A stretch of DNA of 63,506 nt, the filler included, from Catajapyx aquilonaris (lineage: Eukaryota), in NCBI GenBank assembly GCA_000934665.2. It is 3 parts of 3 records of this genome, joined end to end, with 100 filler letters (N's around TTAATTAATTAA, not from the genome) between each part and the next. Parts side by side here need not be neighbours in the genome. Positions count along the whole stretch, not along the records: positions 21,329 to 42,400 come from KZ539487.1; 2 more parts are not named here. One strand, given 5' to 3'. The notes under the pieces are model-generated. The model was not told where the DNA came from and ran no database searches. It worked only from the letters and a program-made list of their open reading frames with translations. A program made the translations under genes and the position numbers. Positions 1,041 to 62,900 of the stretch are shown here, piece after piece. Within the stretch, counting starts at the first letter, position 1. Each line of letters opens with the position of its first letter.

Positions 1041-8995
<7,955 letters not shown>

Positions 8996-11781: not shown

Positions 11782-14700
11782 ATGCGCCTCATTTTGGTGA
11801 GTTTTGAAATAATTGTATATTTCATAGCAGAATGCACAAGTACAGAGAACCACGCATCGCAACAAATACGATCTGGTCTTGCCTAGTTTGCATAATATTT
11901 CGGAGAGTTGTTATGACTTTCCCAGTTTCCCTTCTCATTATACTTGAAAGCCTGATTTTAGCGGCCGTAATTAGAGTGCAGGAAGTCCTACTTGTCTTGA
12001 CTCATTCTAATTTTTTTGGTGAAAACGACAGAAGAAAGATACGCCCCTATCAAGATACTGTAAGTGATAAGCCCATAGAAAAGCAACAACGATTTGTGGG
12101 AAAAAAAAAGTGAGCAAGTTCTTTGCAATAGTAATACATCTGACTATACAGCATAGTTGATGATGCTGTACCAATTCAATCATTGCTAATGCATCTTAAA
12201 AGCTTTTGTGACACCATTGTTAGGATATAATATGATTTTAGCGCAGTTCATCGTCAGGATAATTGACACCATTATTGTGTCCTGAACTTCGTAAAGATAT
12301 CGCCGAGAATCTTTTACATCAAAGTAATTCGAGTGGATAGTGAAGAAAACGTTCGTAGATTTGTTGGGGACGATGTGACCGACTTTCAGTGGTGGAGAGA
12401 GCAAGAGTCAAGATTTTGGCATTTCGCCTTTGAAATCTTCGGATGGCAGGTTACAACATAAGGATCCAATTCAATGTTTCAAACTTTGAATATTTATTCT
12501 TAATATTGAGAAAAAGTTTTCATTATGCATTGCTGAATATGTGCCAAGAGAAAGTGGAACTGTATTTATTACTTGAGAATTTCGCACACAATGCAGTTAT
12601 ATTATCAATTTCTTGGGATTGCGTCATTTTTAAACGCTGTATACAGTTCATTCCCATAGGCGATATTACTGGACGATGAAAGTTTCAGGTGAATAATTGC
12701 CCGAGTGGTTTCGATACGTGCACGTAACTGACTGCATGCAATTGGCGTGTGCCTCATGCTGTGGAATTATCATCAATTTATGAATTGCGCATTACTTTCG
12801 CTATAATGGCAAACATAGCACTTGCATATTTTGTTTTTCAATCTTCTTGGCAGTACGATGAGGAAAAGATATACCCTCAAGTGCTTGGGAAACATTTCCC
12901 ATTACTCATGTCAGTAGGTTTCACATTTCCCTGAAGTAGGAGCAGCTATGAATACAAATAAATTAATATACGTAGCTGTCGTTTCCTCTTGCTACATGCA
13001 GTATATCGGTGCCATTTTCTAATGCCCCGCCCGAAGCAAATATGATTATGCGTAAGTTCAACAACACTCCCCAACACATTTATACAAAATGCAAAGTAGC
13101 TCCAGTATACATCATTGATTTGCATTTTAAAATACAGGCAGCATGTCTCCTCCATCTACTGAGCTGGTCACCTAATTCGCTCCACTGGGCTGACACCCTC
13201 CCAGTGGGGTACCTCATATGGGGCACACCATTCCTCTACTCCACCCTCAACTACACCATCGATCCTGAGCAAGCCTACAGGGACCGGCCAAAGTACCAAG
13301 CAGACCACGGAAGGAGGGGGCAGAGACTCATCAACGAGATAGGAAAGGGTCAGAATGTAATGGTCAGGAACAATGGAACCAAGACTGTTTCATGGTGGAA
13401 TCAAGTGCAAGGACTTGGATTAGTGCCTGTGCGAAAGTGATTTATTGTGATGTGTGGTTCTCTCCATGTGGACAAATGGGGGTGTTCGCCGGTGTTGAGT
13501 AACAGTAGGAATGACAGTGCAATTAAAAGTGACTAACTCTGGAAAGTCTGGATATAAGAGTCTTCAAGGGACCACGGAAATCAGTATCCTATGAGCTATG
13601 ACTGAGGTTTCCTATTTGCTATTTCCAAATACACAGGCCATAATATTTATGGAAGTATGCTGGGACCTGTCTTTTGAGTTGGCTATAATGGAGGGTTGCA
13701 TATAGCCACGTCTCTTATATTAGGAATAAACTGTACATTACAATAAAGATCACCAAAACAATAGCAAAAAAGTAGCCTTGATGGATAATTATAATGTAAT
13801 ACAGAATAATATTTTTACAGGTCCCTCTAATTGTCTAATAGCTAGTTGCTTGAAGTTACTCTGTATGTTCTTATCAAGACAGTGAATGTAACTAACTTAT
13901 TGAATTTGCTGTGTCAAGGGATATAACACTAGGTTTTGTGTTCAATCATCTCTGTAGTAATACAAGAAGATACGATTTATTGCCTAACTTAACATCATTA
14001 ATGAAAAATATTTGTATGGATATTAGCAACATTTACTGAAGATACATGTTATTGACTACTGAATGTATGTGCCTGGAGTCTTCTCAGAATTATACTTAGT
14101 GGTTGACAAATGTGTGTCTGTGAAATCCCATGTTGGGCATTATCCTACTATCCTAAACGTGATTTTATCTTTGTTAGTGTCTGAAATATCTACATTACAG
14201 GAGTAAAGAAATTTTTTGAATCACATCGGATATAAATGACACCTAGCTCATATTAATACCTGTGTAATTTGGCATCAGCCATTGAAAGTGTTGTTGTTGT
14301 TGTCGTGGTTTTTTGCCATGTGACACCCTAATTTCTCAACTTCACATTGCAAGTACATTGTTCTAAATCAACCTAGTGCAGTACAGCTCCTACGAAAGTT
14401 ATAGAAATTTTACATTACAACAGGCTACCCTTTTCCAATCTCTTTCAGTTTGTTCTCATTCTAACAGCAACATGTGACCCCCAAACATCAGGCCAAATCA
14501 ACCCACCTGGCATCCTAACTGGAAATCAGCCACTAACCTTCAGGCAAGAGAATAGCAAAACAAACATAGACCAAAGCATTGAAAGAACACCATTTCGTTT
14601 GCCAGTATCACCATATCCATTCCAACAAAGGTAAGCCTGCTTACATACTGGAAAAACAAATGTGAATTCCACTTGCTGTTTGCTTCCAGGCCTAAATACA

Positions 14701-16737: not shown

Positions 16738-19700
16738 CTACACATCGATGAATGGTGGTGACCAACCCACCCTGTCCCCACTTCCCCTGAAGCCATCACG
16801 GTAGAGTGTGACAAAGCCAGAGCACCTGGATAGGGGTCCTGACCACTTTAGGAATGAGCCACAACACTCATTGTTCATCAAGTAATGCTGCTGGTCTGTG
16901 TATCTGTCACCAATGGGATCTGAGTTGGCAGGTACCCAAGCAGAGTTGCCTCCAGGTTGAAAATTCTTCCCCAGTGTCACAGTCACCTGCTGAAGTAGCT
17001 CATCATCTGTGTCATCTTCACCACTGCTGGTAGAATCAGAGCATCCTAGGGTTGCCAGGAGAAGGCTTGTGGTCAACATCTGAGCTGGAATGGTGCTGCT
17101 ACCATTGTTGGGAGTCAGTGTGGAAGCTGGATCATCATGAACAGAAGAACCAGTTAGAAGAGAGTCAGGGGAGCAGATACGGGTCACTTGGGAAGCCAGA
17201 ACTGTGAAGCCCATCAGCGTCATCAGTGTTGCCACATGGCTCGCCATGCACACAACTGACACCTGCAAAAAATTAACAATTTTATGAGATGACTACACAC
17301 AGTCACAGAAACAAAAATACAATGAGTACCTGTGGCTGTCCTCACAACATGAATATATTAAATATTAATAAAAATATGATTTAAAAAAATCCAACACACA
17401 TTTTCATTGCAGTGCAGTACTGTATACTTAAGGCCTGTGCACACTAGAGTTGCTGGCTAAGCGCTGCTAGAGGCAACCAATCACAGCCCAGTTTGCTCCA
17501 CTCAGCTTTACGCCGGTATGCGCAGCTCATAATAGTTTTTTTTTTTCCCCCCCGCTCCGCTCACACTCTATACACGCAAAGGAGCCAATGGAGAGCTAAG
17601 ACGTCACCAAGGGATGGGGTTGATTGGTGTGCAGGGCCACTGTGGCTCCTCTGGTGAGCTATTCATTCACTCAGGCAGGCCAGGAGATTGACAACACGTT
17701 GTTGGGTATAGGAGAAGACACGCCTAACAGGTTCTGGGGGTTGGGAGATGTGAGGTGGCATGGGGTTGGAGAAAGGGTGTTGGGGGTGAGGGGTGGTGGC
17801 TTCCCACCCTGGTTTGCGACAGTGTCTTGAGTGTGAACACGACAATGAAACGGAGCGACAGTGACAACAAAATGAACGGGAGCGGCTCGTAGCCAGAAAC
17901 TCTAGTGTGCACGGGCCTTTACACTGTAAATTCAAGTAACTAAAACTTGCATGGTAGAAAAACAAATACTCTGCCTACAGTTCAACAATTCAAAATATCA
18001 GTTACCTGTCTGCACTCACTACAGCAGTGGTTTCCTTTTACCTTTTACCAACTCCAGCCCCCTAAACATTTTTCCATAAATCCCATTCCTCCCCTCCCCC
18101 AGCCCCTCCGACAAATGCTCCCTTTCCAGAAAACATACACTCTGAACAGCCGTAAAAATGGTGCAATTGACACAGACATTGCAAGTTGAGGCCAGGCTCA
18201 CGACCCCCTGCGACCCACTGGATGGAAACCACTGCACTAAGGAGATATGGCATCCTACTAGGCCTAGACTTCTCACCTTAGCAACATTTTCTAGTAACAA
18301 GTCCCAGCATTTGGCCCAGTCCACTAGCCTGGATAAGGAATGGAGATCAGCGTAAGTGAACCATCCCCTGTCCATTGCTGCCTTTCTCCAGGCTGTGTGA
18401 CCCTCAACCCAGCACAGCTTTGCCTCAAAGTCCTCCTGAGATGCCACCAAGCTCCAGTCCAGTGCCTCCAAAAAGTCTATTTCCAGCTGGTTCAGATCTT
18501 CCAGCTCTAAGTCTGAGGCCTTTGCCCACTGTCGGTTGCAGCAAAAGCTTTCGTCGTCCTCTTCAGTAAGGAACTTATGGGCTACCATCTGGAAATAACA
18601 AACAAGAATTTTATCAGGTTGCCATTATTTTGAGATGTAGGTTAAAATTCCACTTTCAATGCAATAAGGCATTCCAAATGTATCATGCTTTGTAATAAAT
18701 TGTTTTAAAATGAACCTGACCATTGACACAACAAACAACTTGGCAGGTGATGTCCGATCCAAAAAGTAGGAGTCACTGATCTTCAGCCGGTCCAAGTAGA
18801 GTAAGGCAAGAACAAAGGAGCTCGGAGAGATAGAACCAGGGCGGGAAACTTTGGCTGCATGGTCCACACTTAGCTGGTCCAAAGTGTCGCGGAGACCTGC
18901 TTTGGTGAAGATCTCCACAGCTATATCTAGATTCATAATTAAAGTGTGTTACTTATACTACAAAGTGCTGACTTAACCGCAAGCATCCCTAAATGTGATG
19001 TGGCCAAATAAAATGTAGTAGGGAGGCATGGGGGTCTGGTGGTTACACCCCTGGCCAGCCAAGCGGGATGCCGGGGTTCAAATCCCGTCCCCGTCACCTC
19101 AGCTTGGCCGGGTCTTTTTCCGCTTTTCACCCAACATGCCGGGGCAGAATTACACCCCCTACTCTGCCCAAGGCCAGGAGAAAAGGTCTGGTGTATATCA
19201 GAAAGTCAGAAACGACTATAATTACAGCGCCCTCCCCGGGGACCTCCTCTTCCCCCCTACAAGGGCTCCGCCCAATCACCAGGTATATTTTAAACAATAA
19301 CAATAACAATAACAATAACAATAATGATAACAATGCAGTAACAGCCAAAATTTTCGAAATTGAACTGGAGATCNCCCTAAATGTGATGTGGCCAAATAAA
19401 ATGCAGTAGGGAGGCATGGGGGTCTGGTGGTTACACCCCTGGCCAGCCAAGCGGGATGCCGGGGTTCAAATCCCGTCCCCGTCACCTCAGCTTGGCCGGG
19501 TCTTTTTCCGCTTTTCACCCAACATGCCGGGGCAGAATTACACCCCCTACTCTGCCCAAGGCCAGGAGAAAAGGTCTGGTGTATATCAGAAAGTCAGAAA
19601 CGACTATAATTACAGCGCCCTCCCCGGGGACCTCCTCTTCCCCCCTACAAGGGCTCCGCCCAATCACCAGGTATATTTTAAACAATAACAATAACAATAA

Positions 19701-21228: not shown

Positions 21229-21328
21229 NNNNNNNNNNNNNNNNNNNNNNNNNNNNNNNNNNNNNNNNNNNNTTAATTAATTAANNNNNNNNNNNNNNNN
21301 NNNNNNNNNNNNNNNNNNNNNNNNNNNN
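21229..21328. other. Artificial contig-joining spacer
   Basis: 44 N + TTAATTAATTAA (stops in all six frames) + 44 N; the same construct occurs at 42401-42500. Confidence 0.95.
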
Positions 21329-26225: not shown

Positions 26226-27778
26226 TGTCACCACAGTCCGCCCGTCACTATCCTTGGCGGAGTGGTCAGCGCCTGCCTCCACTAGGAACTTGACGATGTC
26301 TAGACAGCCGCCGTGGCAGCATAGTGCAGAGGGGTGTACAGGGCCGGACTGGCCCGGCCAGCTGACCGGCGATCGCCGGTGGGGCCAAAGGTGGGGCCAA
26401 AGTTTTCCGCAGGGGCCGGTAGATCGCGGTCGCCTGGTTTCGGTCAGTGGATGGGTTTGCCTGAACAATAATTATATTTAAAAAAAATCTTACCCTTGAT
26501 AGCCTTTCTGGCTTGTCGGGGGACATTCCCCCCACAGCAGGTTACATAATATATTACAGTATATGCACTCATAATTTGGTAAGGCTCAAAGGCTGATTGA
26601 ACATTTGAACTATCGGGAGGGGGGCCCGGCACCTTTCCCGTCTTGAAGGTGCAAAATGTTTGGGGTCACTGGTCAGAAAGGGACAAATATAACAGGTACC
26701 TTCAATTAGGAACCCTGACTTCATCTGGTCGCGACTCACGCTCACAGGGCAAGAAATAAGCATGCCAAGTCACTTCTTCGGCCACCAACAGGATAAGAAT
26801 TTCAGTGCATTTTCCGAGTCGTGCTCTCACAATAAATGACATACAGTATTGACAACCCTATGTACTGAACCCTTGAGGGCTCACCATCTGGGACCAGCCA
26901 AGAGCTGAAGAAGCCAGTACTGCATGCCCTTCTTGTGGAGGCACTACATGACTGGAGAACACGCAGCACGGTGAACGGTCAGTGACAGTGGCGGATTTGG
27001 GGGGACGGGGGCACGGGGGCACGTGCCCCCCCCCCCCCCCNNNNNNNNNNNNNNNNNNNNNNNNNNNNNNNNNNNNNNNNNNNNNNNNNNNNNNNNNNNN
27101 NNNNNNNNNNNNNNNNNNNNNNNNNNNNNNNNNNNNNNNNNNNNNNNNNNNNNNNNNNNNNNNNNNNNNNNNNNNNNNNNNNNNNNNNNNNNNNNNNNNN
27201 NNNNNNNNNNNNCCCGGAAATGTAATGCAACAATATAACTTTTCCTTGCTTTTATAATACTTAATACCGTACCAATTTTGGTACAATAATGTGAAGGTTA
27301 TGGGAACGGTAAATGACTGAGAAATTGGGGGCCAACACGATTTAACAGCCGGTGGGGCCAACCACTAGCCAGTCCGGCCCTGGGGGTGTAGTTGATGAGG
27401 CCAGGGTCGTTCAGGGTGGCCCCTTCTTTCAGGAGGAAGTCAACCACTGCCAATTGGTTTTCACGCGCCGCGTAGTGGTCCTCGTCCACGTCCTTGGCCT
27501 TGACCTCCGCCTCTCCGCGGATCAGGTGGCCGCAGGTGGAGGGATGCCCACTCATGGCGGCCAGGTGAAGGGTGGTGTCCTCCGACAGCCCTACCAGGTT
27601 GACCGGCCATCCTTCCCGCACCAGGTAACAGACCACCTCATCCTGCCCCCACATGGCCGCTCCAGCCGTTGGTGTCGTCCACCAGGCACACCAGTCCTCA
27701 GATCCCAGTGCGCTTCTCCACCATTCCTTGCACCTCGCTCAGTCTGCCATGTTCGCAGGCCATCAGAAAGGGCAGCCT
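26226..27778 (-). pseudogene. Ankyrin-repeat pseudogene exon split by a hAT element
   Basis: Acceptor at 27779-27780. Reads FLMACEHGRL...*...TTLHLAAMSGHPSTCGHLIRGEAEVKAKD...NYTP | LHYAA / HGGCLDIVKFLVEAGADHSAKDSDGRT, with an in-frame stop, deletions and a frameshift. Confidence 0.8.
26339..27382. mobile_element. hAT-type non-autonomous element (contains an N gap and a probable nested CAGTGGCGGA element end)
   Basis: CAGGGCCGGACTGGC / GCCAGTCCGGCCCTG TIRs, 8-bp TSD GGGGTGTA. Confidence 0.9.
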
Positions 27779-33291: not shown

Positions 33292-34167
33292 TAATAAGTA
33301 TGATGCGTTCACCCCAGAGCAGCGGGATAACATTTCGCTAACAATATGGCAAGGTGTAGATAAGAATTGACATTGCTAGGTGATAGAATCATGAACAAAT
33401 GAAGTATTTGACGGCAAAAAATTGGTGAAAAAAATCATAACTTCAATCTTGCAGCAGGTGGAACTGTGAGGTTTTGAACATAGATCCGCACCATCCTACT
33501 GCGCATTCGGCTGGCATTCGGCCCTTTGATGAAGAAACCAAATTCCGAATAGTTATTGAGCAAAAAAATAGAAATGTATTTTATATTGGATTTTACTTGT
33601 TTGTGGCTTTTTGAAGACGAATTGAGTTTGGCTGTAAATGGTAGGAATGCACTTCACCGGTGGGGATCTGCCTTCAAATTTTGGAAGTGGTGCCTGCAGC
33701 AGAACTTGAGTTCGGGCGAATTTTATAAAACGTAATAACAACAAGTAGGAAAAATTCATTGTTGAAAGTTGTTGTAAGGACTTACTAAGGGGCTCCCGCC
33801 CCTAAAATACGCGGATTGAAACAAGCTTTCGAACTATGTACTGTACGTATAATGTTATTTTTTGGTCCATTTTCCTGGGACTTATTTAGAATCAAGCACA
33901 GGGGCCAGTGTTTAAAAATTCGAATTCATTCGTAATCCATTTTTAGACGCCACTCCTGTTCTGAGGACCTAAGACTGATTTGGTACCCTGGATGGTGACT
34001 TCTCTGCTGCTCTGAATGGACGAACAAGTGTCAAAGTGGTCTGAAGACCAAGTCCAGCAATGGCTCAAGCGAGAGGGACTGGAGCCTTTTTGCGAAGCGT
34101 TTGCTGGTATAAAGTACATATGTAGGATAAAGAGTGAGTACCTTGTCTGATAGTACACCCTATAGTT

Positions 34168-35181
34168 GAAGGGGTCGGTGAGAGATAATCGTATGCCACA
34201 CGAAGTTGTTTTTGAGAAAAACACATTTAAAACTTTGATCAAATCTATAAATCAGAGTCCTTTAAATGTATGACTTTCTTGAGCGCCAATTACATGTTGA
34301 TGTCGTTTTTTACTCGTATGATGTTTCAAAAGTTGCTAACTTTATGATTTCGTATTGTAATGATTTCTTTTTTGGAGCTATGTTTCACTAAATGTGGCTT
34401 ACGACTATATCAACCTGTATTTTAAAGTAAAAGTAAAGGAGCATTGGTTTTCAGCATTATTATTTTTTAATTAAAAATATATCATCTTAGGCTATATGGG
34501 GAAAGTCTTTCTATTATGATTAAAGCAACAAAATATGCAACAAAGCATTTCCGTATCACTGCTGAAATAATAATATTAATTTTCCTCATTTTATAATCGT
34601 CCGTCTTCGCTTTCCTCCTCCCTTTCGACATTCTTTTCTTCCCCAGTGGATGGTATCGAGGATAACGATAAAAAGAAATCCTGACTTGTACTTATGGAAT
34701 CATCTTCCGGAAACGATCAGGTGGGCCCATAGTTTCGTTTCAAAAAAATTGTGGCTTATTATTTGAAACAGATATAATCATAAGCCACAATTTTTTTGAA
34801 ACGAAACTATGGACCCACCTGGTCGTTTCCGGAAGATGATTCACTTCTGGATGGCTTCCATGACTCGTCAGAGTCAGTTGAACTCATGTCAGATTCTTGC
34901 TCACTTGATTCCGTCGCCACAAATAAACGGTTTTCTCGCAGATGAAGAAGACCCTCCTTCTCCAATGGCGGCCATCTTGGTGTGGCTTACGATTGTGACA
35001 CCACTGAATATTTGTCACTTTTCAAAATCTGAGAAAATCGTAGAGATCTCATAGCCGTCTGTTCACGATATTCGAAACTGTACTGTGTCCATAGGTAAAC
35101 CGGTGCTGCCACAGTAGGAATATGCCTGTATCTCGAAAAATATGAAATTGTGGCATACGATTATCTCTCACCGACCCCTTC
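34168..35181. mobile_element. TIR element with 4-bp TSD
   Basis: GAAGGGGTCGGTGAGAGATAATCGTATGCCACA perfect TIR, AGTT TSD; internal hairpin at about 34697-34842. Confidence 0.88.
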
Positions 35182-35273
35182 AGTTGTATCAATCGCACTC
35201 CCACCGGGGTGGGTCATTGTGACCCAGCCAGTACTCCTGTTGCTGTTTTGTCATGTCATATGTTAGACGCAAT

Positions 35274-35830
35274 TGGGTCATTCCACGACAGTATTCAGGG
35301 AACGTGGTGGCTCAACCAACTCCGATTTTCTTGAAAATTTTCATACATGGGGAAGACGTTTCAAAATCCGAAGTTTTAACTCCGTAGGGCGGCGATTTTT
35401 GAGTTGCAGAGTACTGAAATTCATTTTTTATCTCCATAAGTAACAGTCTCCACCTAACCAATACAGGGTGGACCAACTTCAAGTGTCGTTTTATAACGGC
35501 GATTAATAGCAGTGATTTTGCGATGACGTAGCAGCGACGTGTAAAATGTCCCACTTCGGCGCCATCGAAAATATTAGCTGCATGTGGTTGCACAGTGTTC
35601 AGCTAATATTTTCGATGGCGCCGAAGTGGGCCATTTTACACGTCGCTGCTACGTCAGTATTCTGCAACTCAAAAATCGCCATTTTTGAATCGGCCATATC
35701 TCGGCTCCATATTGTCATACGGAGTTAAAACTTCGGATTTTGAAATGTCTTCCCCATGTATGAAAATTTTCAAGAAAATCGAGTTGGTCGAGCCACCACG
35801 TTCCCTGAATTGACGTGGACGAATGACTCG
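35274..35830. mobile_element. Foldback MITE with about 120-bp TIRs and an inner hairpin
   Basis: ATTCAGGGAACGTGGTGGCTC...AGTTTTAACTCCGTA is mirrored at about 35717-35810; inner palindrome at about 35525-35655. Confidence 0.8.
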
Positions 35831-36552
35831 CTTCGAAAAAAAAACTCAAGGTCAAAATTTTACGATTGGAAGAGCATACGTGAATAGGGCTTCCAAAATA
35901 AATAAAAATCAATCTTTTTGGGTGGCCTAAATCTAAAAAAAAGTCGGAAATAATGTCAAGGTTTTGGAAAATAAACGCGGTCGTTCTGTACAGTCATGCA
36001 CAGTCTTTCCGAAATATAGTGAAACCAAGGGGGAAGGAGCAGTTTTGCGGGATGTGGTAAGAGAGGGGTGGGGGGNNNNNNNNNNNNNNNNNNNNNNNNN
36101 NNNNNNNNNNNNNNNNNNNNNNNNNNNNGGGGGGGGGGGGGGGGGGGGGGGAAAGGCTGTATATGTCACATATGTACCAATCACAGACCACCATTTCACC
36201 CACGTGACAACATGGAGTCCTCCATCTTGTCACGTTCAGAGTAGTGTGGATAGCATGTGGACTTTCTCCAGCATTACAGAGCTTTTAGGGGCACAAGCGA
36301 TCCAGGTAATCATGAGTCTTGTCTGGTATCTATACATACCTGATTGCACCATCCTTGTCAGATGAAAATTTAATTTGAACATAAAATGTACTGCTTTAAG
36401 CAATATTAGCATGTCTGCTTTCTTTCAGGGGCAATGTCTGCGTGTCTTATGATGTTATGATTTATTATCCATATAGCGTAAAACAATATATGGCTAGCAT
36501 TCAGTGATTCATTTCTGATTAAAGCAACAAAAATCTCAGTTCACTCTTAACT

Positions 36553-39092
36553 GTGTACCACTGCAATGACAGAATTTATTACTGTCCTGTCAATACATGC
36601 ACGGTGAAAAAGAGGACAGTCAGAAAACTTGTTCAGCATGTGGGTTTGCTTCATGGCCAAGAAAGTGGTTTTCATCTGGTGTGTGGCATTAATAACTGCA
36701 GTAGGCAATATTCAAAATTTCTCTCATACAAAAAACATGCATTGATTTTCCACAAGGAGGTGCCATTAGACAATAAGCAGCACATAGAGACACACAGGGG
36801 TTCAGCTTCCTCTTCACATCAGGGAGAGCAGCAGGCTAGCTTAGACAGTACACTGATTAACGGAAGAAGTATCAGGGCTATCGAACAGGATATTGAGGTT
36901 ACAGGCACAGGATTTCAGACTCATGATATGGAAATAGACCAGAAGTCGGTGTTTATTTCTAATCTAAGGGAGCATTTTGCCATGCTATTTTTAAGATTAA
37001 GAGAAAAGCAAGCGGTTCCCAAGTCTTTACAAACAAATTTAGTACCTGATGTGGCAGTCCTGCTTCAAACAATTAATGATGACTACACCAATATGATACG
37101 GCAACAGCTGGCCTGTGATAACGTTGAGATTTCTGAAGAACTTCAGAGTATCCTAGCAGATGATACATTTACTATGGCCTTGGAGCAAGTGAAGACAGAA
37201 TATAGGCTCAACAATTTTTGCAGGCGCCAGTTAAACTTGGTAGAACCCGTTCAGGTGTCACTTATGGGTGTGTATGGAAGCAAACACACATTTCAATACG
37301 TGCCCATCCTAGCCATTGTTCGGGTTCAGTTAAACGACCCGGACGTATTGGCTCAGGCACTGAGATATCAGAAAAAACATGACGAACATCTGACAGATTA
37401 TGGGGACGGGAGTATTTGCGAAAAACACAATCTATTTGCGCAAGACCCTACAGCCATCAAGATACACCTGTACACTGACGAATTCGAGGTTGCAAATCCT
37501 TTAGGAGCTAAGCGGGTGGTGCACAAAATTCTTGCAGTGTACTTTACAATAGGAAACCTTCACCGTAACCACCGCTCTCAGCTGAGGCAGATTCACCTGC
37601 TGCTTTTAGCAAAACACAAGATTTTGAAGTCCCTCACATATGCAGATGTTCTGAAGCCTCTTATTAAAGATGTGACATTGTGTTGGAACAGGGAGTGAAT
37701 TTTGACACTCCGCAGGGCCGAATGATTTTCCGTGGAGCCATTGCAACAGTTTCCACGGATAATTTGTCCGCTCATACTGTGTCAGGATTCAAACAGAGTT
37801 TTAGCAAGGGGCGGGCGTGTGTGCCGCGTGTGTATGGCCACATCAAAATCCATGCATCGCCCTTCTGAGCAAGAGTTCCTTCTCAGAACCCCCGAAGGTC
37901 ATGAAGCCCATGTGAGAGCTGTTGAGCTTCGACCTGCTGATTCCAAAATATATGGGGTCAAAGGCCGATGCCCATTGTCAGAATTGATGTACTTTGATAT
38001 TTTCACATGTTTCCCTCCAGACATTATGCACGATATAATGGAAGGGGTTATTCCTCTCGTAATCAAGTGCGTTTTACGTCATTTCATTGATGTTACAAAG
38101 TACTTGTCAAACGGGACGTAAATCAGGAAATTAAGAAGTTCAATGAAGGGAGAGCAAAGCATGACACACCAGTCTTAGAAATCTCGCCAGGGTCGTTGTT
38201 GGACAAGGGGAAACTGTTAGGATCTGCGAGTGACAAGTTCGCCTTTTTTCTGAGGTTGCCCTTTATCATTGGCCACTTTGTTCCAGAAAATAATAGCACC
38301 TGGAAAATGGTCTCCTTTCTGCGGGACATTTGCGACATCATATTTGCACCGACTGTCACAAAAGAGTGGGTTGCAGTTCTCAATTACCAAATACAGTCAT
38401 TCATCATGGAATTTACTAGACTCTTCCCAAATAAGATAATCCCCAAAATTCATTACATGGTACACTACCCAAGGATGATTTTAGCCTTCGGTCCACTGCG
38501 GCACGTTTGGTGCATGAGATACGAAGGGAAGCGCCGATATTTCAAAAGACTTGCTCACATTACGTGCAATATTAAAAACATATGCCGTACACTTGCAACT
38601 CGACACCAATACAGACAATGCTGGGAAAACAAAACTGGTGCAATAGATCAATCTGGACCGAAGGCTATGTCAGCACAGGTTAAAAGGAAAGTCGAATCTC
38701 TGCCTCTAGAAATGCAGGCAGAATTGAAAGTATGGTATAGCGATGTTGAGCCTGAGGAGTGTATTTTAAAAGTTAATGCTCTAGATGTAAATAATGTCAG
38801 CTACAGAGTAAACAGCTTTTATGTGGTAGCAACTATTCATGGGGAAGATATCCTAGTGTTTGCCAAAGTGTGCAATATCATGTGCTTCAGGGACTTATGG
38901 TTCATTTGCTGCCAAGTATACATCTCTCAGAAGTGGTCAGAGCACTTGCATGCATACAGAATAAAATCAGAATATGACTGGGCAATTTTTAGACCAGGAA
39001 GTGAACTTGACAGACACGAGCTGTTCCCCTGGTCTGATGACGTCGGTGAAAAGTGGATTTCTTTACCATATAGAGTGACATCCAGACCATGA
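36553..39092 (+). pseudogene. CMC (CACTA/EnSpm-like) DDE transposase with N-terminal C2H2 zinc fingers, intronless, three frameshifts
   Basis: Two C2H2 fingers; motifs IHLYTDEFEVANPLG, DNLSAH..GFKQSF..GRVCRVC, FPPDIMHDIMEG, PKIHYMVHYP, FGPL..VWCMRYEGKRRYFK. Spread over four frame segments with shifts at about 37680, 37812 and 38105. Confidence 0.88.
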
Positions 39093-39191
39093 ATATCGAA
39101 AGAAGCAAAAGCAAACAAGAGATACGGTACTTGGACCAAATGAAAGCATGTTATTATTTTCTTAGCTTTTAAGTATTTTGTAAATTTATGG

Positions 39192-39224
<33 letters not shown>

Positions 39225-39225
39225 G

Positions 39226-39311
<86 letters not shown>
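39192..39311. repeat. (ATT)n microsatellite
   Basis: Directly visible. Confidence 0.95.
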
Positions 39312-39312
<1 letters not shown>

Positions 39313-40080
39313 GGAAGTTCAAACCTTTCCTTTCAAAAAAGGAAGCTGATGGTCTCATTCGGTTCAAGTGCCTTATAATCGGGTGTGCGGGCAGAGAAAT
39401 TAAGGTTGAATGATTCTGATATTAGCTTTGCTGATTCATTCTTTCACTGAACATACATTGCACATGCGCTGATATTGTCCTCACCTCCCACCGATCACCA
39501 AATAATGCCACAACAATGCTGCAAGCCGCTCCAATGCCAAATTGCGTTATATACTCACCTCTATGCTCATGTGAAAGTGAATAATTTTTAAAAGGCCTTG
39601 TAGATCATTATGGATAATGAATCATATGTAAACTTGCCGTAAGACAGATCATCAAGAGAACTAGGCCAGATTTCACGTGGTGAGTAAAAGTAGCCACAGA
39701 TTTTGCCTAAAAAGATTGGGTCACACTGAGACTACTAGAATAGTCATTGTCAAATATTTTACTAAGTTTCTAACGTAGTACCTCTTCTACAGTACTTGCA
39801 TATTGATTAAACTTTAAATCAGGCTTCAGCAGCAGCATTTTATGCACCAAGTAACTTAAATAATTTTGCTGTCAAAAGTTACTGGCGAACTGGTCTGAGA
39901 CACATTCAGACACTTAAATTACTAACGTGAGTGTATTCCTGAGTCAGGAGCTGGCGGCAATAAATAAATAAATTCGATATTATGTTAATCTTCCGACATC
40001 ACTGACCATCCCATTTATGGGGAAAAGTCGTGATGGTTTTTGTTTGGTTATTTGTTTCATCTTTTGCATTTGCGGTAGGC

Positions 40081-40573
40081 CAGGGATATTCAACTGGCGG
40101 ACCGCGGTCCGGATCCGGACTGCGACGCAATTTTGTCAGGACCGCGACAATATACAGGACAGTTTGAAATAGCATGATAAATTACTAATTCATGATTTTT
40201 TTGGGGGAAAAAGTGCTACCAATTTCATCAAATACACACCTATTCAAATCTCCCACAGATAACCTAGGCTCGTGTGACCTTGAACCCCCCAAAAAATTTC
40301 GCCTGCGGCGGGCTCGTTCCCCGCCCTTTACGGCTTGTTCACCTTTTGCTTACGAAATGGGCCCCCTCCGAAATTCTTCTGCCTACGCCCCTGTACAGGA
40401 CATCATAAAGGGCAAAAATGTCTTGATAGGCCCTTCTACCCTTGCTGCACATGTTTCTATTTTCGAATATGAACCCTGTGGTACCATATAAAATGGGGGG
40501 GGNNNNNNCGGACCTTCAATGGCCCAGGTAAGGTAAATACTGGACCTTGTCAGAAACTAGTTGAATACCCCTG
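40081..40573. mobile_element. hAT (Charlie-like) MITE
   Basis: CAGGGATATTCAACT / AGTTGAATACCCCTG TIRs, 8-bp TSD CGGTAGGC. Confidence 0.9.
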
Positions 40574-42400
40574 CGGTAGGCCATCGTTCTGATCCACAAT
40601 TACAAATTAATGCTAACAAAATTGGTAATTAGGCCACAGTCACTTTTTTAACAGTTATTGATATTTTTTCAGCTGAGTCTATTGATGGCGAAACGCTTAC
40701 GGGCCTGACTGAGGGCATGATTTCCCGCCTCATCCCGCCAATGAAACACCAAGTTAAGTTTATTAAAGCCAGAGCCAATTTAATGCAGAAAGGGTGGGAA
40801 GACGTACAAGAAGAGGAAAGTGCTTGCGATGATAATGTACGGTAAGTCTACAAGCCCAACTATAGGGAGTTAACAGTCCACAGTTAAAGTAGAAGTTGTT
40901 GATAGTTTATCCCAGGCAACCATGCAGTTTTAAAATGACCAACACTAACAAAAAATGTGTCACTGATTCTTGGCCAAAAAACAAAAAGCAACAATTTAAA
41001 TAAATTGGTCTGTGGGGTAAATATGCCAAAACCTGTTTCCTTTACCTTCTTCTTGAATGGGAACTTGCGCAGTCTATTGTACAGTACCACTATATTCAGC
41101 ATTTTACCTCATTATCACAAAGTAGACGTTCCGATTTAATTTACTCCCCCGTTTTCTTTATCCCCCCTTAAAAAGTGAACATTTCTTTAAAAAGTGAAAT
41201 TGTTTCAATTAATTTTTTTCCAGGGATATGGCGCCAGTTGTAGGCCTACCAAGACAAGGAGAAGAACCGTGGCCGGTGGATTACCTCCATTACCAACAAA
41301 TGTGCAGGACGCACTGAAGGCAAAAGATGCCAATTTTTTTAAGCTGCCACGATCGAGATTGCGGGATGCTCTCATTGCAGCTCTCTATGAAGATCTGTCT
41401 CGCTTCATGTAAGTGTCTAATCACAGTTTTAATACTTGTTCAATAATTCAGGCAAATTTCAGAAGACAATTAATATTGTTACAGGTATCTAGAACGAAGG
41501 CAGTACGATGAGGTTATCAATGTCCTTCTTGCAAGGTACATCTTCCTGAGAGCACACAATGGAGCAGTACGTACTTGCATTTTGTGACTCTTATTACTGT
41601 CCAATCACGACAACTTGAAACCTTGACTTGGCCCAAAAAAACAGTACAGGAAAAATTCCTGCACAACACTGGGAATTTTAATTGCACTGAACCCATCCCC
41701 TGCCTGCAGTAGCACACCTATGATGAAACCATGTGGAACTATTTTCAGCGCAGTGCACGTCCTTTTTTCCCTTTCTTCCCTCTCCCCCCCCCCTCCCCCG
41801 GTCTCCTCCAAATCCTCCTAGGTGGATATGTAACCTATTTATTATCAAGGTTCGAAATAGAGCGGTTAGAGGATATGCCGTATAGGCCTACTTCAAATGC
41901 CATGATTTTTAAAGAGTATTTACTTGCAGGCTATCTTGAAAAAATCCCTCACAGGGAAATTTAAGAAGGAGAGACTCCATCTCTCCGACAATGAGGAGGT
42001 GAGGAAAGCAAAACAGAAGTTTGGGAGGCCAGGAATTTCCGGCCGACCCTCAGGCCAGCGAGAGGAGGTGGGACCTCTACCACCCTGCAAAAGGCGATCA
42101 GTAAGACTTTTTAAAATGCAGTTGTTGCTGCGAAGCTTGTTCGTTTGCTTTTATTTATTTGTAATGTTTGGCATATATTTTCTTTCAGACTGACATCCCG
42201 GAGTAGTATCCCACAGCGGCTTACGGAGCCTCATGGAAAAATTCCGCAGTGTCGCCACCGTCTATGCGAGTTTAACATGGGAAAGCGCCACTGCGGCCAT
42301 TTCTGTAACTAGTAAATATGCGTGGGAAGAGTCTCCAGCCAATCAGGAGGCTCGCCGAGAAGCTACGCTTTGAAAAGCAGCGGCGGCCCGCGCGGCAGTG

Positions 42401-42500
42401 NNNNNNNNNNNNNNNNNNNNNNNNNNNNNNNNNNNNNNNNNNNNTTAATTAATTAANNNNNNNNNNNNNNNNNNNNNNNNNNNNNNNNNNNNNNNNNNNN
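42401..42500. other. Artificial contig-joining spacer
   Basis: 44 N + TTAATTAATTAA + 44 N. Confidence 0.95.
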
Positions 42501-59520: not shown

Positions 59521-59853
59521 AGCGTCGCGGAGAGAGGGGAGAGGAGAGGAGACAGGCAGGGGGGGCTGCTTCGCCCGGTTTAGTGATCGTCTGTTGGGCG
59601 CCCGCCGTGTATGGGTGTAGTCAGGCAGCGGCGCCTGGCGGTGGGGAGCGGAGGGACGGGGAGCCGCTCATTTCGGTGCTGGTGATAATATATCCTTTCC
59701 TGAATAATATCCCCCCAAGAGAGAAAAGTGCGGGAGTGTGAAGTGTCGCATGTACAGGGATTCCAGTGCCGCCGGTGAGGGTTGCCTTCGCGCCTGGTGG
59801 GAGTGTGGAAGAGCATCGTGGATTGCCAGGGCGTATCATATCTGGTAGGGAAG

Positions 59854-59971
59854 ATGGGGTGCGCCATGTCTGCGGAGGAGCGCGCGGCGCTGGCTCGCTC
59901 CAAGCAGATAGAGAAGAACCTGAAGGAGGACGGGATCCAGGCGGCCAAGGACATCAAATTACTACTGCTAG
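59854..59971 (+). CDS. GNAO1: G protein alpha-o subunit, first coding exon (118 nt)
   Basis: [40 protein letters not shown]|gtgcgt: MGC acylation motif and the conserved phase-1 intron after KLLLLG. Confidence 0.95.
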
Positions 59972-62900
59972 GTGCGTTCCATCCCCCATGCATGGAACCG
60001 GCATTTTTTTTTGCTTCGTATGGATGGTGTCACACCCCCTCCACCCCTCCCCCACCTCATTTGACAGCTGCCTTCCGAATCCAACATGGCCGCTTCGGTT
60101 CTTCCTCTTTTTTTTCTTCTTTTTTTCTTTTTTTTCTTTTTACGGGTACTCACCCTCCCCCTCTCCCCTCCCTGCTCCTCCGCTCGCACTCCCACCGATT
60201 TACATAGCGCCGATTCTGGCCGCTTGGAGGCGACATGGATCGGCCCCTGAATGCGACGTTGACAAGTCGACTGGAACCGGTTTTATGCCTGGATTTCAAT
60301 TTTCTTAAAAAAAAAAAAAATGGGAGAGAAAAAAATTGCGGAACTTTTAATGGCTTTGCGCAAAAATGTGCATAAAAATGGAATGGGAGTGTTGAAGAGC
60401 CAGTCAGCCGAAATTTCAATTTTCGTGTAATTTGCCGGATTCAATTTTGCAATTTGCAGTGCAGTTCATGTGAGAAAAACTGACAGGAGATTGGACGTGG
60501 TCGAAAGAGATGATAAAATTGGAGGCTTTCATGTAATGAGGGATGTTCAGTGCAATGCATTTCACATCACATGGAATGAAACCTGTCTATAACGGAATCG
60601 GTCGTCAGTTTTTTTTGTATTTCCTTACTGAACAGGTTTCCGTTACGTACTGTAAGACAGGAATACATTGAAGAGCCATGCTCGAAGGTTGGTAGTGGAG
60701 ACTTTTCCATTATTCGATTACGTGTAATCACTTTCCGTAAATAAGCTACTTATTTGTGATTACACGACAGTATATACAACATAACCCCTTTACTCAAGAC
60801 CAAACAAAAATTACCGTAATGGACAAGTTTTCGCTAAATACAGGGCCCTTTACAGACACATGTTTCTCCATATTTTGCAAAAGAAAAACTGTATTAAAGA
60901 ACCAGACTTTTCACAATAATGTAACTCGTAACAAACCTGTATGTACCAGAACAAGTAGAACTGAACATTTCAGGCTGATTTGTGTTCTTTGCGTCCTTTT
61001 TCCAATTGATTGACGTAGTCGGTACAATTTTTATGTAGCTGCTATTGATTTGCTCTCCTCGAAAGCGCAGTTGCAGATGTTGGAAATGTGATTGATGTCT
61101 TATACATGTCTTTTCAGTTGGCCATGCCTAGCCTATATTACCATTCGAATGGCATGTAAATATTGAATGTTTTGTAAAAAGCCGAATTATTGTGCGAATT
61201 ATGAACTGAATTTGAAAGCATCGTCCCACTCCCACTAATATCAACTTGCAGGCATTAAGTGAATTTTGTTGCAGCAGAAAATGCTTATGTAACACTAATT
61301 TGTCTCTCGCATCTTCAAGTCTGGGCAAAATCATCCGTCTGATTGGCAGAAAAAAATCTGGCTCGTTCATTTTTACTGCAGTATGCAGCGTACGAAAAAT
61401 GTTTTTAAAAAATGTCTGACTACAAAAAACAGCATTTTTTTCTGACAGATCGCCAGCTATATTGCTGTTTACAGCACTGCAGAGTCTACTTTCGCATACA
61501 GATGTTTTTTTATGACCAGTTTTGCACGCAGCATGCTTGTGTCAGGAAATTGCAAAAGAAAGATCACTAGAAAGCGGATCAACTTTGACTTTTTCGGCAA
61601 TAAATCTGACGCATACTTCAGATTACGTGTGAAGATATGTGTAGGTATTGCTTCCAGATGGTCGATAATATTGTGTGGAAAAACTTCTGAAATAGCTTCC
61701 TGCCTTTCTCACAGCCATTGACTGCCTTCTCTCTCTCTTTTTTTTCAAATGGGTCATTGAACCTGTTGTTCTCGTTACTGGAAGCTAATTTTACCAGATA
61801 AGTATTGATCACAAGGAGGGGGTGAAGTTAGACTGCACCTAATCAAGGAGACAGAATTGAAATACCTGCTGGCCTGATTCTCACACAACATGTGATCGTG
61901 AACAAATATGATATTGGACATTAGGTTGTGTGGGGGATGGGCGTGACTCTTAATAAAGGGGAAATGACTGGTGTTGTATGGCAAATTGATAATAGGGTAG
62001 GCTCGAAAGCAGGACATATGTCGTTAAGTTTTTTCCGGAATGGGCAGATTAGCTTATGAAAAATTTTCATATCAGCAGGGGTTTTCCCAAGCACATCCGA
62101 TATTTCAAGCTCAGGTTTCTCGACATTATCAGAATGCTGTTAAGCTATCCGGTAATAGGGCCTACTTGTCATAGTTTGGAGTGTTTCTGACATGCCATTT
62201 TTTCCACCCTCTGAACCACTTTTAAAGTCAACTATATTTGTTCGATAGCTTGGCTGCTACAGCACTGTTGGAAGGGACGTACAGCTTGAATTTTCCCCCC
62301 CCTATTTCAACTGTTACAATTTTGCTTCCAAGCAGCTAAAACATGGTAATTGCTGCATCAATCTGGCCAGTGTGTACGCAGGTGAATTACATTCTTCTCA
62401 AAAGGCAGGTTGTACTGTGGCTAGGAACCGGTTTTTTGGCTGCAAAAGTGACAGGAAAATTGACAATTTTATTCAGTGAAATTCCACTTTCTTGTGACTT
62501 TTCCAGCCGCAGAAAGTGGTTTGTGGCAACCGGCTCTAAGTGATAAAGATATCTTGACAAGTGAGTAGGTGAGAGCTTAGTAATATGGCTCCATTTGTAT
62601 CTTTGTCAATCTAATAGTAATGCAGAAATCTTGTAGGCTGATGCGTTACTTCTTAGTTCTTTCTTGTCAATTGTTACATCTGGGTCACATGCTAAAACTG
62701 CTGACCTAACATGTTCCATACACAATTATTTAGTCTTTTAGAGGAGGGATTGAGTGACTCATCACTCATCAGGTATAAATTATATGCACGCTCACCAGCA
62801 CGAGCAGCTTTGTATTGAAAGGGTATTTTGTCTAATAACGTATGTGCGAAATATTTTCGTGAGTAATTTAACTTTAATTTATTCAATTTTTAATTTGTTT

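What the first reader, a model, noticed from the sequence alone, without database searches (positions are those of the whole stretch)
34016..42100. Transposase nested inside the intron that splits a SAM domain: a two-gene CMC/EnSpm-like unit
Seen: an intronless zinc-finger DDE transposase (36553-39092) lies on the same strand inside the 6.5-kb first intron of a spliced gene. That gene's SAM domain is encoded half before (34016-34106) and half after (40673-40841) the intron. Later exons resemble SAMD3-like proteins (WP..Y, LYEDL, KFKKER). Established: CACTA/EnSpm elements encode a transposase plus an accessory protein, by alternative splicing in maize En/Spm; SAM domains oligomerise. Inference: both ORFs belong to one element, where a splicing choice would set transposase versus SAM-regulator output, and vertebrate SAMD3 may be related to such cargo. 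I found no TIR/TSD immediately around the transposase, which argues against an independent insertion.
Basis: partly seen in the sequence, partly recalled or inferred. Interest (0 to 1): 0.72.

Follow-up and report, generated by a model that had tools for sequence, protein, structure and literature searches.

The report
Dead two-gene transposon, transposase inside intron
This is a decayed copy of an animal cut-and-paste transposon whose transposase gene sits inside the intron that splits the SAM domain of a second, SAMD3-like gene, a layout that recurs in many related elements of other animals.

Summary
A SAM domain is split by a phase-1 intron (34107-40672), and a roughly 840-codon zinc-finger DDE transposase (TP, 36568-39092) lies in that intron on the same strand. 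The TP is not intact. It has three frameshifts and no start codon. Exon 3 of the SAM gene is also frameshifted, and a scaffold linker cuts the gene at 42400.

I fetched 80 contigs that encode TP relatives, which form 64 clusters.
- SAM exon 1 lies within 400 nt upstream of the TP in 20 of 44 testable clusters.
- Exon 2 lies downstream in 15 of 37.
- Some exon of the SAMD3-like gene lies downstream in 19 of 20 clusters with at least 3.5 kb of flank.
- All 154 exon hits are on the TP strand, and the splice positions are conserved.
- A tree of the SAM exons recovers the TP clades.
- More distant TP clades carry the same gene body behind a PB1 domain, placed after the TP.
- Profiles of that body retrieve fish proteins named SAMD3-like.

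Three things remain open. I found no outer termini. No RNA data were available. An 18-bp inverted repeat with TGT direct repeats flanks the TP in this copy only and is unexplained.

The parts
34016..34106 (+). SAM-gene exon 1: ATG plus the first ~30 residues of a SAM domain, ending at a phase-1 GT donor
   Evidence: Sequence. Exon-1 HMM E 3e-11. The profile hits solved SAM domains.
34107..40672 (+). Intron 1, which holds the transposase. Relatives span about 2.8-3.3 kb from exon 1 to exon 2. Later insertions have enlarged it here.
34168..35181 (.). Secondary insertion: non-autonomous element with 33-34-nt perfect inverted ends and a 4-bp AGTT duplication
   Evidence: 2 matches in the window, 0 expected by chance.
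35293..35810 (.). Foldback (long hairpin) repeat, also secondary
   Evidence: pairs I2, I3, I5, I7.
36076..36128 (.). Run of N inside a poly-G tract (an assembly gap between exon 1 and the transposase)
36456..36473 (+). Left arm of the 18-nt inverted repeat around the transposase, preceded by TGT
36568..39092 (+). Transposase pseudogene: C2H2-type zinc fingers plus a DDE core. It has three frameshifts (about 37680, 37815, 38090) and no start codon. The conserved acidic residues are kept.
39192..39311 (.). (ATT)40 microsatellite
39609..39626 (-). Right arm of the 18-nt inverted repeat, followed by TGT
40673..40841 (+). SAM-gene exon 2: the second part of the SAM domain (IDGETLTGLTEGMISRLIPPMKHQVKF) plus a linker
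   Evidence: Exon-2 HMM E 5e-19. The AG acceptor lies 8 nt before the IDG motif, as in all relatives. The Atlas lead points to SAM families at 0.82-0.87.
41224..41408 (+). Exon 3 (WPVDY / LPPLPTNVQDAL...LYEDL), with a frameshift between the two motifs
41485..41566 (+). Exon 4 (YLERRQYDEVINVLLARYIFLRAHNGA), which corresponds to exon e4 of relatives
   Evidence: by eye; it did not reach E 1e-3.
41930..42100 (+). Exon 5 (KFKKER...AKQKFGRPG). The later exons (e6-e9 of relatives) are missing because the scaffold ends at 42400.
   Evidence: Exon-5 HMM E 7e-19. Linker seen.

Best explanation
The region is a dead, partly assembled copy of a two-gene DNA transposon of the CACTA-related (CMC / animal 'TRC') kind. 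One gene encodes a zinc-finger DDE transposase (TP). The other is a multi-exon gene for a SAMD3-family protein: an N-terminal SAM domain followed by a helical body.

In this lineage the first SAM exon lies upstream of the TP and the remaining exons lie downstream, so the whole TP ORF sits in the SAM-splitting intron.

Inferred mechanism, not shown: one promoter upstream of exon 1 drives both genes. Splicing exon 1 to exon 2 removes the TP and gives mRNA for the SAM protein. Retaining the intron gives the TP message, in which the exon-1 frame is a short upstream ORF that ends just before the TP start codon. The SAM protein, or its PB1-bearing counterpart in sister clades, would act as an oligomerising accessory factor, as TnpA does for En/Spm.

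In the window both genes are broken and later repeats have filled the intron.
For: Shown:
- The TP has 3507 relatives at E<=1e-3. Full-length ones are 810-850 aa. 11 of 50 match Pfam Transposase_21.
- In 80 fetched contigs (64 clusters at >=95% nt identity), exon HMMs gave 154 hits at E<=1e-3, and 0 were on the strand opposite the TP.
- Exon 1 lies within 400 nt upstream of the TP in 20 of 44 testable clusters. Exon 2 lies within 1.7 kb downstream in 15 of 37. Some SAM-gene exon lies downstream in 19 of 20 clusters with >=3.5 kb of flank.
- The acceptor AG sits 8 nt before the IDG motif in 24 of 24 rows.
- The donor sits 4 nt after the last Phe codon. It reads GT in 15 of 21 relatives and GC in 4 of 21. 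The window has GT.
- The TP start codon lies 33-244 nt after the donor in the 19 of 21 relatives where a start codon was found. In 18 of those 19 the exon-1 frame stops before it, and in L022 it overlaps by 8 nt.
- The TP is a single intact ORF in 37 of 64 clusters.
- In the quick TP tree, one 29-row clade with 100% SH-aLRT support holds every nested form, including the window.
- A 64-column tree of exons 1+2 recovers three TP clades with the fewest possible changes, matched by 0 of 200 shuffles.
- In outgroup clades the same gene body starts with a PB1 domain and lies 42-1486 nt after the TP on the same strand. The association therefore does not depend on an intron insertion.
- In L001 the TP start codon lies 5 nt after the stop codon of the SAM-type gene.
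- In L041 a perfect 19-nt inverted repeat encloses both genes (E 4e-06).
Against: - No outer terminal repeats or target duplications were found for any nested element. In the systematic scan, only 1 of 15 testable loci (L041) gave a strong pair.
- In the window itself an 18-nt inverted repeat with TGT on both sides flanks the TP alone. That pattern is what an independent insertion would leave.
- 24 of 44 and 22 of 37 testable clusters lack a detectable exon 1 or exon 2.
- L001 and L003 show a different gene order.
- Pairwise identities of the SAM exons and the TP correlate only weakly: Spearman 0.33, with 63 of 5000 permutations as high. For exon 2 alone the value is 0.28, with 208 of 5000.
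- Shared clades could partly reflect host phylogeny.
- The loci were chosen for having a TP, so SAM genes without a TP could not be seen.
- The links from exon 1 to the TP and from the TP to exon 2 in this genome cross two N runs. The independent contigs stop at the poly-G tract and the ATT repeat.
Confidence: 0.72

Rival explanations
1. The TP is a self-contained 3.17-kb transposon (36456-39626) with its own 18-bp terminal inverted repeats and a 3-bp TGT target duplication. It inserted into the intron of a SAMD3-like gene, either by chance or because the family prefers that intron.
For: The inverted repeat exceeds chance, arising in 0 of 400 and 1 of 400 simulations. Only these two copies of the 18-mer occur in the window. 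TGT flanks both arms. A 3-bp duplication is the CACTA size (recalled).
Against: None of 12 relatives with both SAM exons has an inverted repeat around the TP above shuffled expectation. Nor do L001-L004. The conserved distance of 33-244 nt from donor to TP start, the conserved splice sites, and the presence of the same gene body next to the TP in non-nested clades are hard to obtain from repeated independent insertions. The repeat does not begin with CACTA or CCC (the CCC core is described in PMC1636069, passages). A 3-nt match has a chance of about 1 in 64.
Confidence: 0.12
2. The SAM gene and the TP form a fixed host locus. This could be a domesticated pair, or a host gene family duplicated together with a resident transposase. 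It is not a mobile unit.
For: No outer termini were found. Hundreds of SAMD3-like proteins are annotated as ordinary genes in fish.
Against: The family is large: 3507 TP relatives and 882 hits to the accessory body among only 8000 scored candidates. Several diverged copies occur among the fetched contigs, and intact and decayed copies coexist. The window copy is decayed in both genes, as expected of a neutral repeat.
Confidence: 0.08
3. The nesting is an assembly artefact. Three contigs (exon 1; TP; exons 2-5) were joined wrongly across N runs.
For: N runs lie at 36076-36128 and 40503-40508. The independent contigs of about 3.07 kb end at the poly-G tract and the ATT repeat.
Against: The order and strand obtained match those in the independent relatives. 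A wrong join would rarely produce that by chance.
Confidence: 0.03

Closest known systems
Maize En/Spm (Suppressor-mutator), the type CACTA element
   Same: One transcription unit gives an accessory protein (TnpA) and the transposase (TnpD) by alternative splicing (PMC1636069, passages). From recall, the transposase ORFs lie in the first intron of tnpA. Here too the TP ORF lies in the first intron of the accessory gene.
   Different: The accessory protein here is a SAM (or PB1) plus SAMD3-type body, unrelated to TnpA. Exon 1 is coding and carries half a domain. No CACTA termini were found. The TP matches Pfam Transposase_21 only at or below the cutoff. Splicing was not observed.
Animal 'TRC' elements such as SmTRC1 of Schistosoma mansoni (DeMarco et al. 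2006, PMC1636069; passages read)
   Same: These are animal CACTA-related transposases with a Transposase_21 core. Relatives are reported in sea urchin, Ciona, zebrafish and mosquito. A shorter spliced transcript encodes a non-transposase protein proposed to act like TnpA.
   Different: That paper found no similarity between SmTRC-PrA/PrB and anything in other animal TRCs. The accessory gene here is conserved across many animals. TRC termini start with CCC and have 2-bp duplications, and neither was found here.
Vertebrate SAMD3 and fish 'SAMD3-like' / 'PB1 domain-containing' proteins
   Same: Profiles of exons e6 and e9 of the element gene hit these proteins in collinear order, with e6 at about residues 265-325 and e9 at the C-terminus (E 1e-17 to 1e-24). 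From recall, human SAMD3 has a SAM domain followed by similar motifs.
   Different: The fish hits I examined begin with a PB1-like beta-grasp, not a SAM domain. Pfam gives weak PB1 matches. The fold search gives Z 9.9 and 9.6 to PB1 domains. No tetrapod SAMD3 was compared. The direction of any relationship (capture or domestication) is unknown.
Other two-gene DNA transposons (PIF/Harbinger with a Myb-like partner; fungal KDZ/Plavaka-type elements carrying TET/JBP genes, PMC12730594, search listing only)
   Same: A transposase travels with a second, non-catalytic or cargo gene.
   Different: The partner proteins differ, and those cases do not place the transposase inside an intron that splits a domain.

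Membership tests
CMC (CACTA-Mirage-Chapaev) / Pfam Transposase_21 (tnp2) transposases | DDE transposase core that matches PF02992 | tested here: inconclusive
   The window pieces match only Plavaka PF18759, at 22.3 bits against a cutoff of 26.3. The closest full-length relative, P0001, scores 28.6 bits, exactly the cutoff. 11 of 50 relatives match at E<=1e-3. The conserved Asp, Asp and Glu columns are present in the window copy.
CMC / animal TRC | Terminal inverted repeats starting with CACTA (plants) or CCC (animal TRC) | tested here: not met
   No such termini were found around the genes in the window or in 80 loci. The window's 3' end is missing, so the test is incomplete for the window itself.
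CMC / animal TRC | 2-3-bp target-site duplication | tested here: inconclusive
   The only candidate is the TGT that flanks the inner 18-nt repeat. The outer ends are unknown.
En/Spm-like two-gene organisation | Transposase ORF inside the first intron of the accessory gene, on the same strand | tested here: met
   Window. Relatives.
En/Spm-like two-gene organisation | Both products arise from one transcript by alternative splicing | not testable with these tools
   No RNA holder was listed.
SAM domain (Pfam SAM_1/SAM_2) | Sequence match to the five-helix SAM domain | tested here: inconclusive
   The first half is met: the exon-1 profile hits residues about 2-28 of solved SAM domains. The second half is not: the exon-2 profile gave no SAM hit among 9 rows. 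The Atlas gave only a lead at 0.82-0.87. The spliced domain could not be submitted as one sequence.
SAMD3 family | Helical body homologous to proteins named SAMD3 or SAMD3-like | tested here: inconclusive
   Relatives' exons e6 and e9 hit proteins with those names. The window keeps only exons 1-5, which match the relatives' exons, and lacks e6-e9 because the scaffold ends. tblastn of the fish proteins found nothing in the window's exons. No tetrapod SAMD3 was tested.

The most novel reading that the evidence does not exclude
An old, widespread lineage of animal CACTA-related transposons carries a dedicated accessory gene of the SAMD3 family. Its N-terminal module has been swapped between two unrelated head-to-tail polymerising domains (SAM and PB1). 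Its confidently modelled 250-residue body has no relative among solved structures. In the SAM lineage the transposase was enclosed by the domain-splitting intron, so that splicing or intron retention chooses the product. Vertebrate SAMD3, a gene of unknown biochemical function, would then be a domesticated copy of this accessory gene, or its captured ancestor.
Probability: 0.35. Interest if true: 0.8.

Novelty: new variant of a known kind. Interest (0 to 1): 0.66.

Why it matters
If the unit is real, it gives animal CACTA-related transposons a conserved accessory protein. DeMarco et al. (PMC1636069) looked for one and did not find it. It also offers a clear case in which a transposase is switched by splicing of a domain-splitting intron.

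It would tie the SAMD3 family, including hundreds of fish genes annotated as ordinary genes, to mobile elements. That would make the function of SAMD3 testable, for example as an oligomerising partner of a transposase.

For genome annotation, 'SAMD3-like' gene models next to such transposases should be treated as transposon genes.

I found no paper that links SAMD3 or SAM domains with CACTA/EnSpm elements in the searchable library. Repbase and subscription journals were not searchable.

Tried and rejected
- **No genome.** No whole genome is held for this window, so copy number and shared termini in this genome could not be tested.
- **Searches with no result.** A word-index protein search with the TP C-terminal piece ('longer') found nothing. 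The same search with the exon-3 peptide found nothing. A look-up of earlier findings by TP sequence found nothing, and so did a look-up by the word SAMD3.
- **Self-search.** No second copy of either gene occurs in the window.
- **RNA.** No RNA holder was listed.
- **Outer termini.**
  - Inverted-repeat scans of L022 and L051 gave only chance-level pairs.
  - Paralogue boundary comparisons showed nucleotide similarity confined to coding parts.
  - A scan for CC[CT]TAGT-type ends showed no pattern.
  - Seeded scans and blastn-short on 15 testable loci with the last exon gave one strong pair in L041. They also gave a 12-nt pair in L028 and L029, which are the same locus, at E 0.01-0.02.
- **Poly(A) signals.** AATAAA or ATTAAA occurs within 400 nt after the TP stop in 9 of 21 relatives, which is not informative.
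- **Exon-2 profile against solved structures.** No SAM hit.
- **Fish SAMD3-like proteins by tblastn against the window.** No hit in the exons.
- **Fold searches.**
  - For the full fish protein only the N-terminal PB1/ubiquitin-like domain matched.
  - For the 252-residue body alone (pLDDT 89, pTM 0.84), the best VIA Z was 5.5, the only row at Z>=5 among 48,161 chains. Foldseek found nothing at E<=0.001.
  - This does not show that the fold is new.
- **Rejected reading.** My first reading was an ordinary independent insertion into a host intron (75%). I dropped it.
- **Technical.** timed out and was repeated with default filters. The careful tree search did not finish, so one search is the quick tree.


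Full report
**What is in the window**

The window is animal DNA. Neighbouring ORFs carry CC2D1-type DM14 domains, ankyrin repeats and a cyclin-like domain.

Two N44-TTAATTAATTAA-N44 linkers lie at 21229-21328 and 42401-42500. They show that the window is a chain of scaffolds, so the finding lies in the piece 21329-42400.

The SAM gene has five visible exons.
- Exon 1 (34016-34106) reads MDEQVSKWSEDQVQQWLKREGLEPFCEAFA and ends at a GT donor in phase 1.
- Exon 2 (40673-40841) follows a polypyrimidine tract and an AG, and reads ..ESIDGETLTGLTEGMISRLIPPMKHQVKF...
- Exons 3-5 lie at 41224-41408, 41485-41566 and 41930-42100.
- The scaffold ends 300 nt later, so any further exons are absent from the assembly.

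**The transposase (TP)**

The 391-residue first piece has 3507 relatives at E<=1e-3 in the representative library. The best are 34-40% identical, and full-length ones are 810-850 aa.

Alignment of six of them to the window shows the TP running from 36568 to 39089. Frame changes occur near 37680, 37815 and 38090. No in-frame ATG lies after the stop at 36520.

The conserved Asp, Asp and Glu positions of the family are present.

Four contig assemblies of public reads from one sample, probably the source of the genome, reproduce 36160-39180 with no difference. The frameshifts are therefore in the reads. Those contigs end at the poly-G tract and at the ATT microsatellite, so they do not bridge to either SAM exon.

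The family assignment is weak.
- 11 of 50 full-length relatives match Pfam Transposase_21 at E<=1e-3. The best scores 28.6 bits, exactly the cutoff.
- The window pieces reach only Plavaka, below its cutoff.
- An Atlas look-up of the C-terminal piece gave eukaryotic hypothetical-protein clusters. One of them has DUF4218 in 20% of its members (a lead only).

**Is the nesting chance, or a unit?**

My first reading was an independent insertion. A note from an earlier agent (e1-7499975) said that a second copy in this genome has the same layout, so I tested for recurrence myself.

With an alignment of 50 TP relatives I fetched 80 contigs from the metagenome collection, each with flanks. tblastn with the window's exon peptides placed exon-1-like sequence just upstream of the TP and exon-2-like sequence just downstream, on the same strand, in many of them.

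I built HMMs from these hits and from further conserved exons of the best-preserved loci, then searched all six frames of all loci. This gave 154 hits at E<=1e-3, none on the strand opposite the TP. The order was always exon 1, TP, exon 2, 3, 4, 5, then e6-e9.

After collapsing near-identical contigs to 64 clusters, the counts were as follows.

| Test | Result |
|---|---|
| Exon 1 within 400 nt upstream of the TP | 20 of 44 testable clusters |
| Exon 2 within 1.7 kb downstream of the TP | 15 of 37 |
| Any SAM-gene exon downstream, with >=3.5 kb of flank | 19 of 20 (the miss is L055) |

The splice sites are conserved.
- The acceptor AG is 8 nt before the IDG motif in all 24 rows, which are 19 distinct rows including the window.
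- The donor is 4 nt after the last Phe codon. Among 21 relatives it reads GT in 15, GC in 4 and is unclear in 2.

The TP is one intact ORF in 37 of 64 clusters, so live-looking copies exist elsewhere.

**Co-descent**

- A quick maximum-likelihood tree of 40 TPs puts every nested form, including the window, in one 29-row clade with 100% SH-aLRT support. The window sits on a long branch and is at most 35% identical to any other row (the careful search did not finish).
- A tree of the 64 exon-1 plus exon-2 columns recovers three TP clades with the minimum number of changes, matched by 0 of 200 shuffles.
- The correlation of pairwise identities is weak: Spearman 0.33, with 63 of 5000 permutations as high. 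For exon 2 alone it is 0.28, with 208 of 5000.
- Host phylogeny could contribute to this agreement.

**Other arrangements of the same pair**

- In the outgroup TP clade the whole accessory gene lies after the TP on the same strand, starting 42-1486 nt after its end. It consists of a PB1-like exon, a 'WP' helical part, a middle part and a C-terminal part.
- A sister clade inside the 29-row group has exons 3, 4, 5, e6 and e9 downstream but no detectable SAM exons. It has weak PB1 hits after the TP.
- In L001 the SAM-type gene comes first, and the TP start codon follows its stop codon by 5 nt.
- The partnership therefore does not depend on the TP lying in an intron. That argues against repeated insertion into a favoured host intron.

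**What the second gene is**

- The exon-1 profile hits the first 25-28 residues of solved SAM domains, including liprin-beta-1, ANKS1B, SHANK2, STIM1, neurabin, ETV6, polyhomeotic and SARM1.
- The exon-2 profile alone found no SAM chain. An Atlas look-up gave SAM families at 0.82-0.87, which is a lead only.
- A profile of exon e6 from 22 loci retrieved 882 proteins at E<=0.01 among 8000 scored candidates. They include fish proteins that their sources name 'sterile alpha motif domain-containing protein 3(-like)' and 'PB1 domain-containing protein'.
- The e6 HMM hit all 120 listed proteins. The e9 HMM hit 19 of the 120, always collinear with e6. In 152 TP relatives used as a control, e6 had 0 hits and e9 had 1.
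- Pfam finds no SAM domain in the 16 such proteins I scanned, and weak PB1 in 3.
- An AlphaFold model of one of them (P0164, 30-row alignment, pLDDT 79) has an N-terminal beta-grasp. It matches PB1 domains at Z 9.9 (rmsd 2.0, 73 residues aligned) and Z 9.6.
- The 252-residue body modelled alone (pLDDT 89, pTM 0.84) found no convincing structural relative.
- The resemblance of the window's motifs to human SAMD3 is from my memory and was not tested.

**State of the window copy**

Both genes are broken. The TP is broken as described above. The SAM gene changes frame in exon 3, between WPVDY and LPPLP, where 15 relatives read [FW]P..Y.LP.FP in one frame.

Two secondary insertions explain part of the long intron. 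One is a 1014-bp element with perfect 33-34-nt inverted ends and an AGTT duplication. The other is a 518-bp foldback.

**How it probably works (inferred)**

In intact relatives the TP start codon lies 33-244 nt after the donor. The exon-1 reading frame, if left unspliced, stops before the TP start in 18 of the 19 relatives where a TP start codon was found, and overlaps it by 8 nt in L022.

This fits one promoter. Splicing would give the SAM protein. Intron retention would give a message in which a short upstream ORF precedes the TP. This is the logic described for Spm/En (PMC1636069, passages).

No RNA data could be obtained, so this remains unshown.

**What argues against this reading**

- No outer termini were found for any nested element. 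The only strong pair enclosing both genes is a perfect 19-mer in L041, which belongs to the non-nested sister clade.
- In the window an 18-nt inverted repeat (one mismatch) with TGT on both outer sides flanks the TP alone. A repeat that long arose in 0 of 400 and 1 of 400 simulations.
- None of 12 nested relatives, nor L001-L004, has such a repeat. I therefore treat it as specific to this copy and unexplained. It could be the ends of a TP-only derivative, a structural repeat, or chance.
- It keeps the independent-insertion rival alive at about 0.12.

**Literature**

Searches for SAMD3 or SAM domains together with transposon, transposase, EnSpm, CACTA or domestication found nothing relevant. 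A broad DDE survey preprint does not mention such a gene in the passages I read.

DeMarco et al. 2006 (PMC1636069, passages) describe animal CACTA-related elements with alternative splicing. They report no conserved accessory protein.

Repbase and non-open journals could not be searched.

**Verdict**

The two-gene reading is well supported by comparison. The splicing switch, the element ends and the tie to tetrapod SAMD3 remain to be shown.

Noticed in passing
window 21229-21328 and 42401-42500: N44-TTAATTAATTAA-N44 blocks, which are six-frame stop linkers. The window is therefore a concatenation of separate scaffolds, and adjacency across these points is artificial.
   Followed up: partly
window 34168-35181: A 1014-bp non-autonomous element with perfect 33-34-nt inverted ends and a 4-bp AGTT duplication, containing an inner 67-nt palindrome (34697-34842). 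It was inserted 61 nt after the exon-1 donor.
   Followed up: partly
window 36456-36473 / 39609-39626: An 18-nt inverted repeat with TGT direct repeats around the transposase. It is beyond chance in simulations and absent from all relatives examined. Its meaning is unknown.
   Followed up: yes
P0244 (797 aa, fish), mapped on L062-L078: An annotated protein joins the N-terminal roughly 490 residues of the transposase (zinc fingers and half the DDE core) to the PB1-type accessory gene. It is either a real alternative splice product or a gene-model fusion.
   Followed up: no
L001:4582-4800 and L003:5346-7903: The accessory gene lies upstream of the transposase. In L001 the stop codon and the TP start codon are 5 nt apart. 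This is a third gene order within the same family.
   Followed up: partly
L041:1097-1115 and 12327-12345: A perfect 19-nt inverted repeat, 168 nt before the transposase and about 155-170 nt after the last accessory exon, with no target duplication. It is a candidate element end or subterminal site.
   Followed up: partly
model m5d66dafe738e (P0176, 252 aa): The conserved body of the SAMD3-like proteins gives a confident model (pLDDT 89, pTM 0.84). Its best structural match is only Z 5.5 among 48,161 solved chains.
   Followed up: partly
window 5819-7599 (-), 18019-18624 (-), 27298-27738 (-), 59779-60207 (+): Ordinary host genes: CC2D1-like DM14 domains, a cyclin-like domain, ankyrin repeats (all Pfam), and an exon whose peptide reads like the N-terminus of a G-protein alpha subunit. 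The last is from recall, since Pfam gave no hit.
   Followed up: partly
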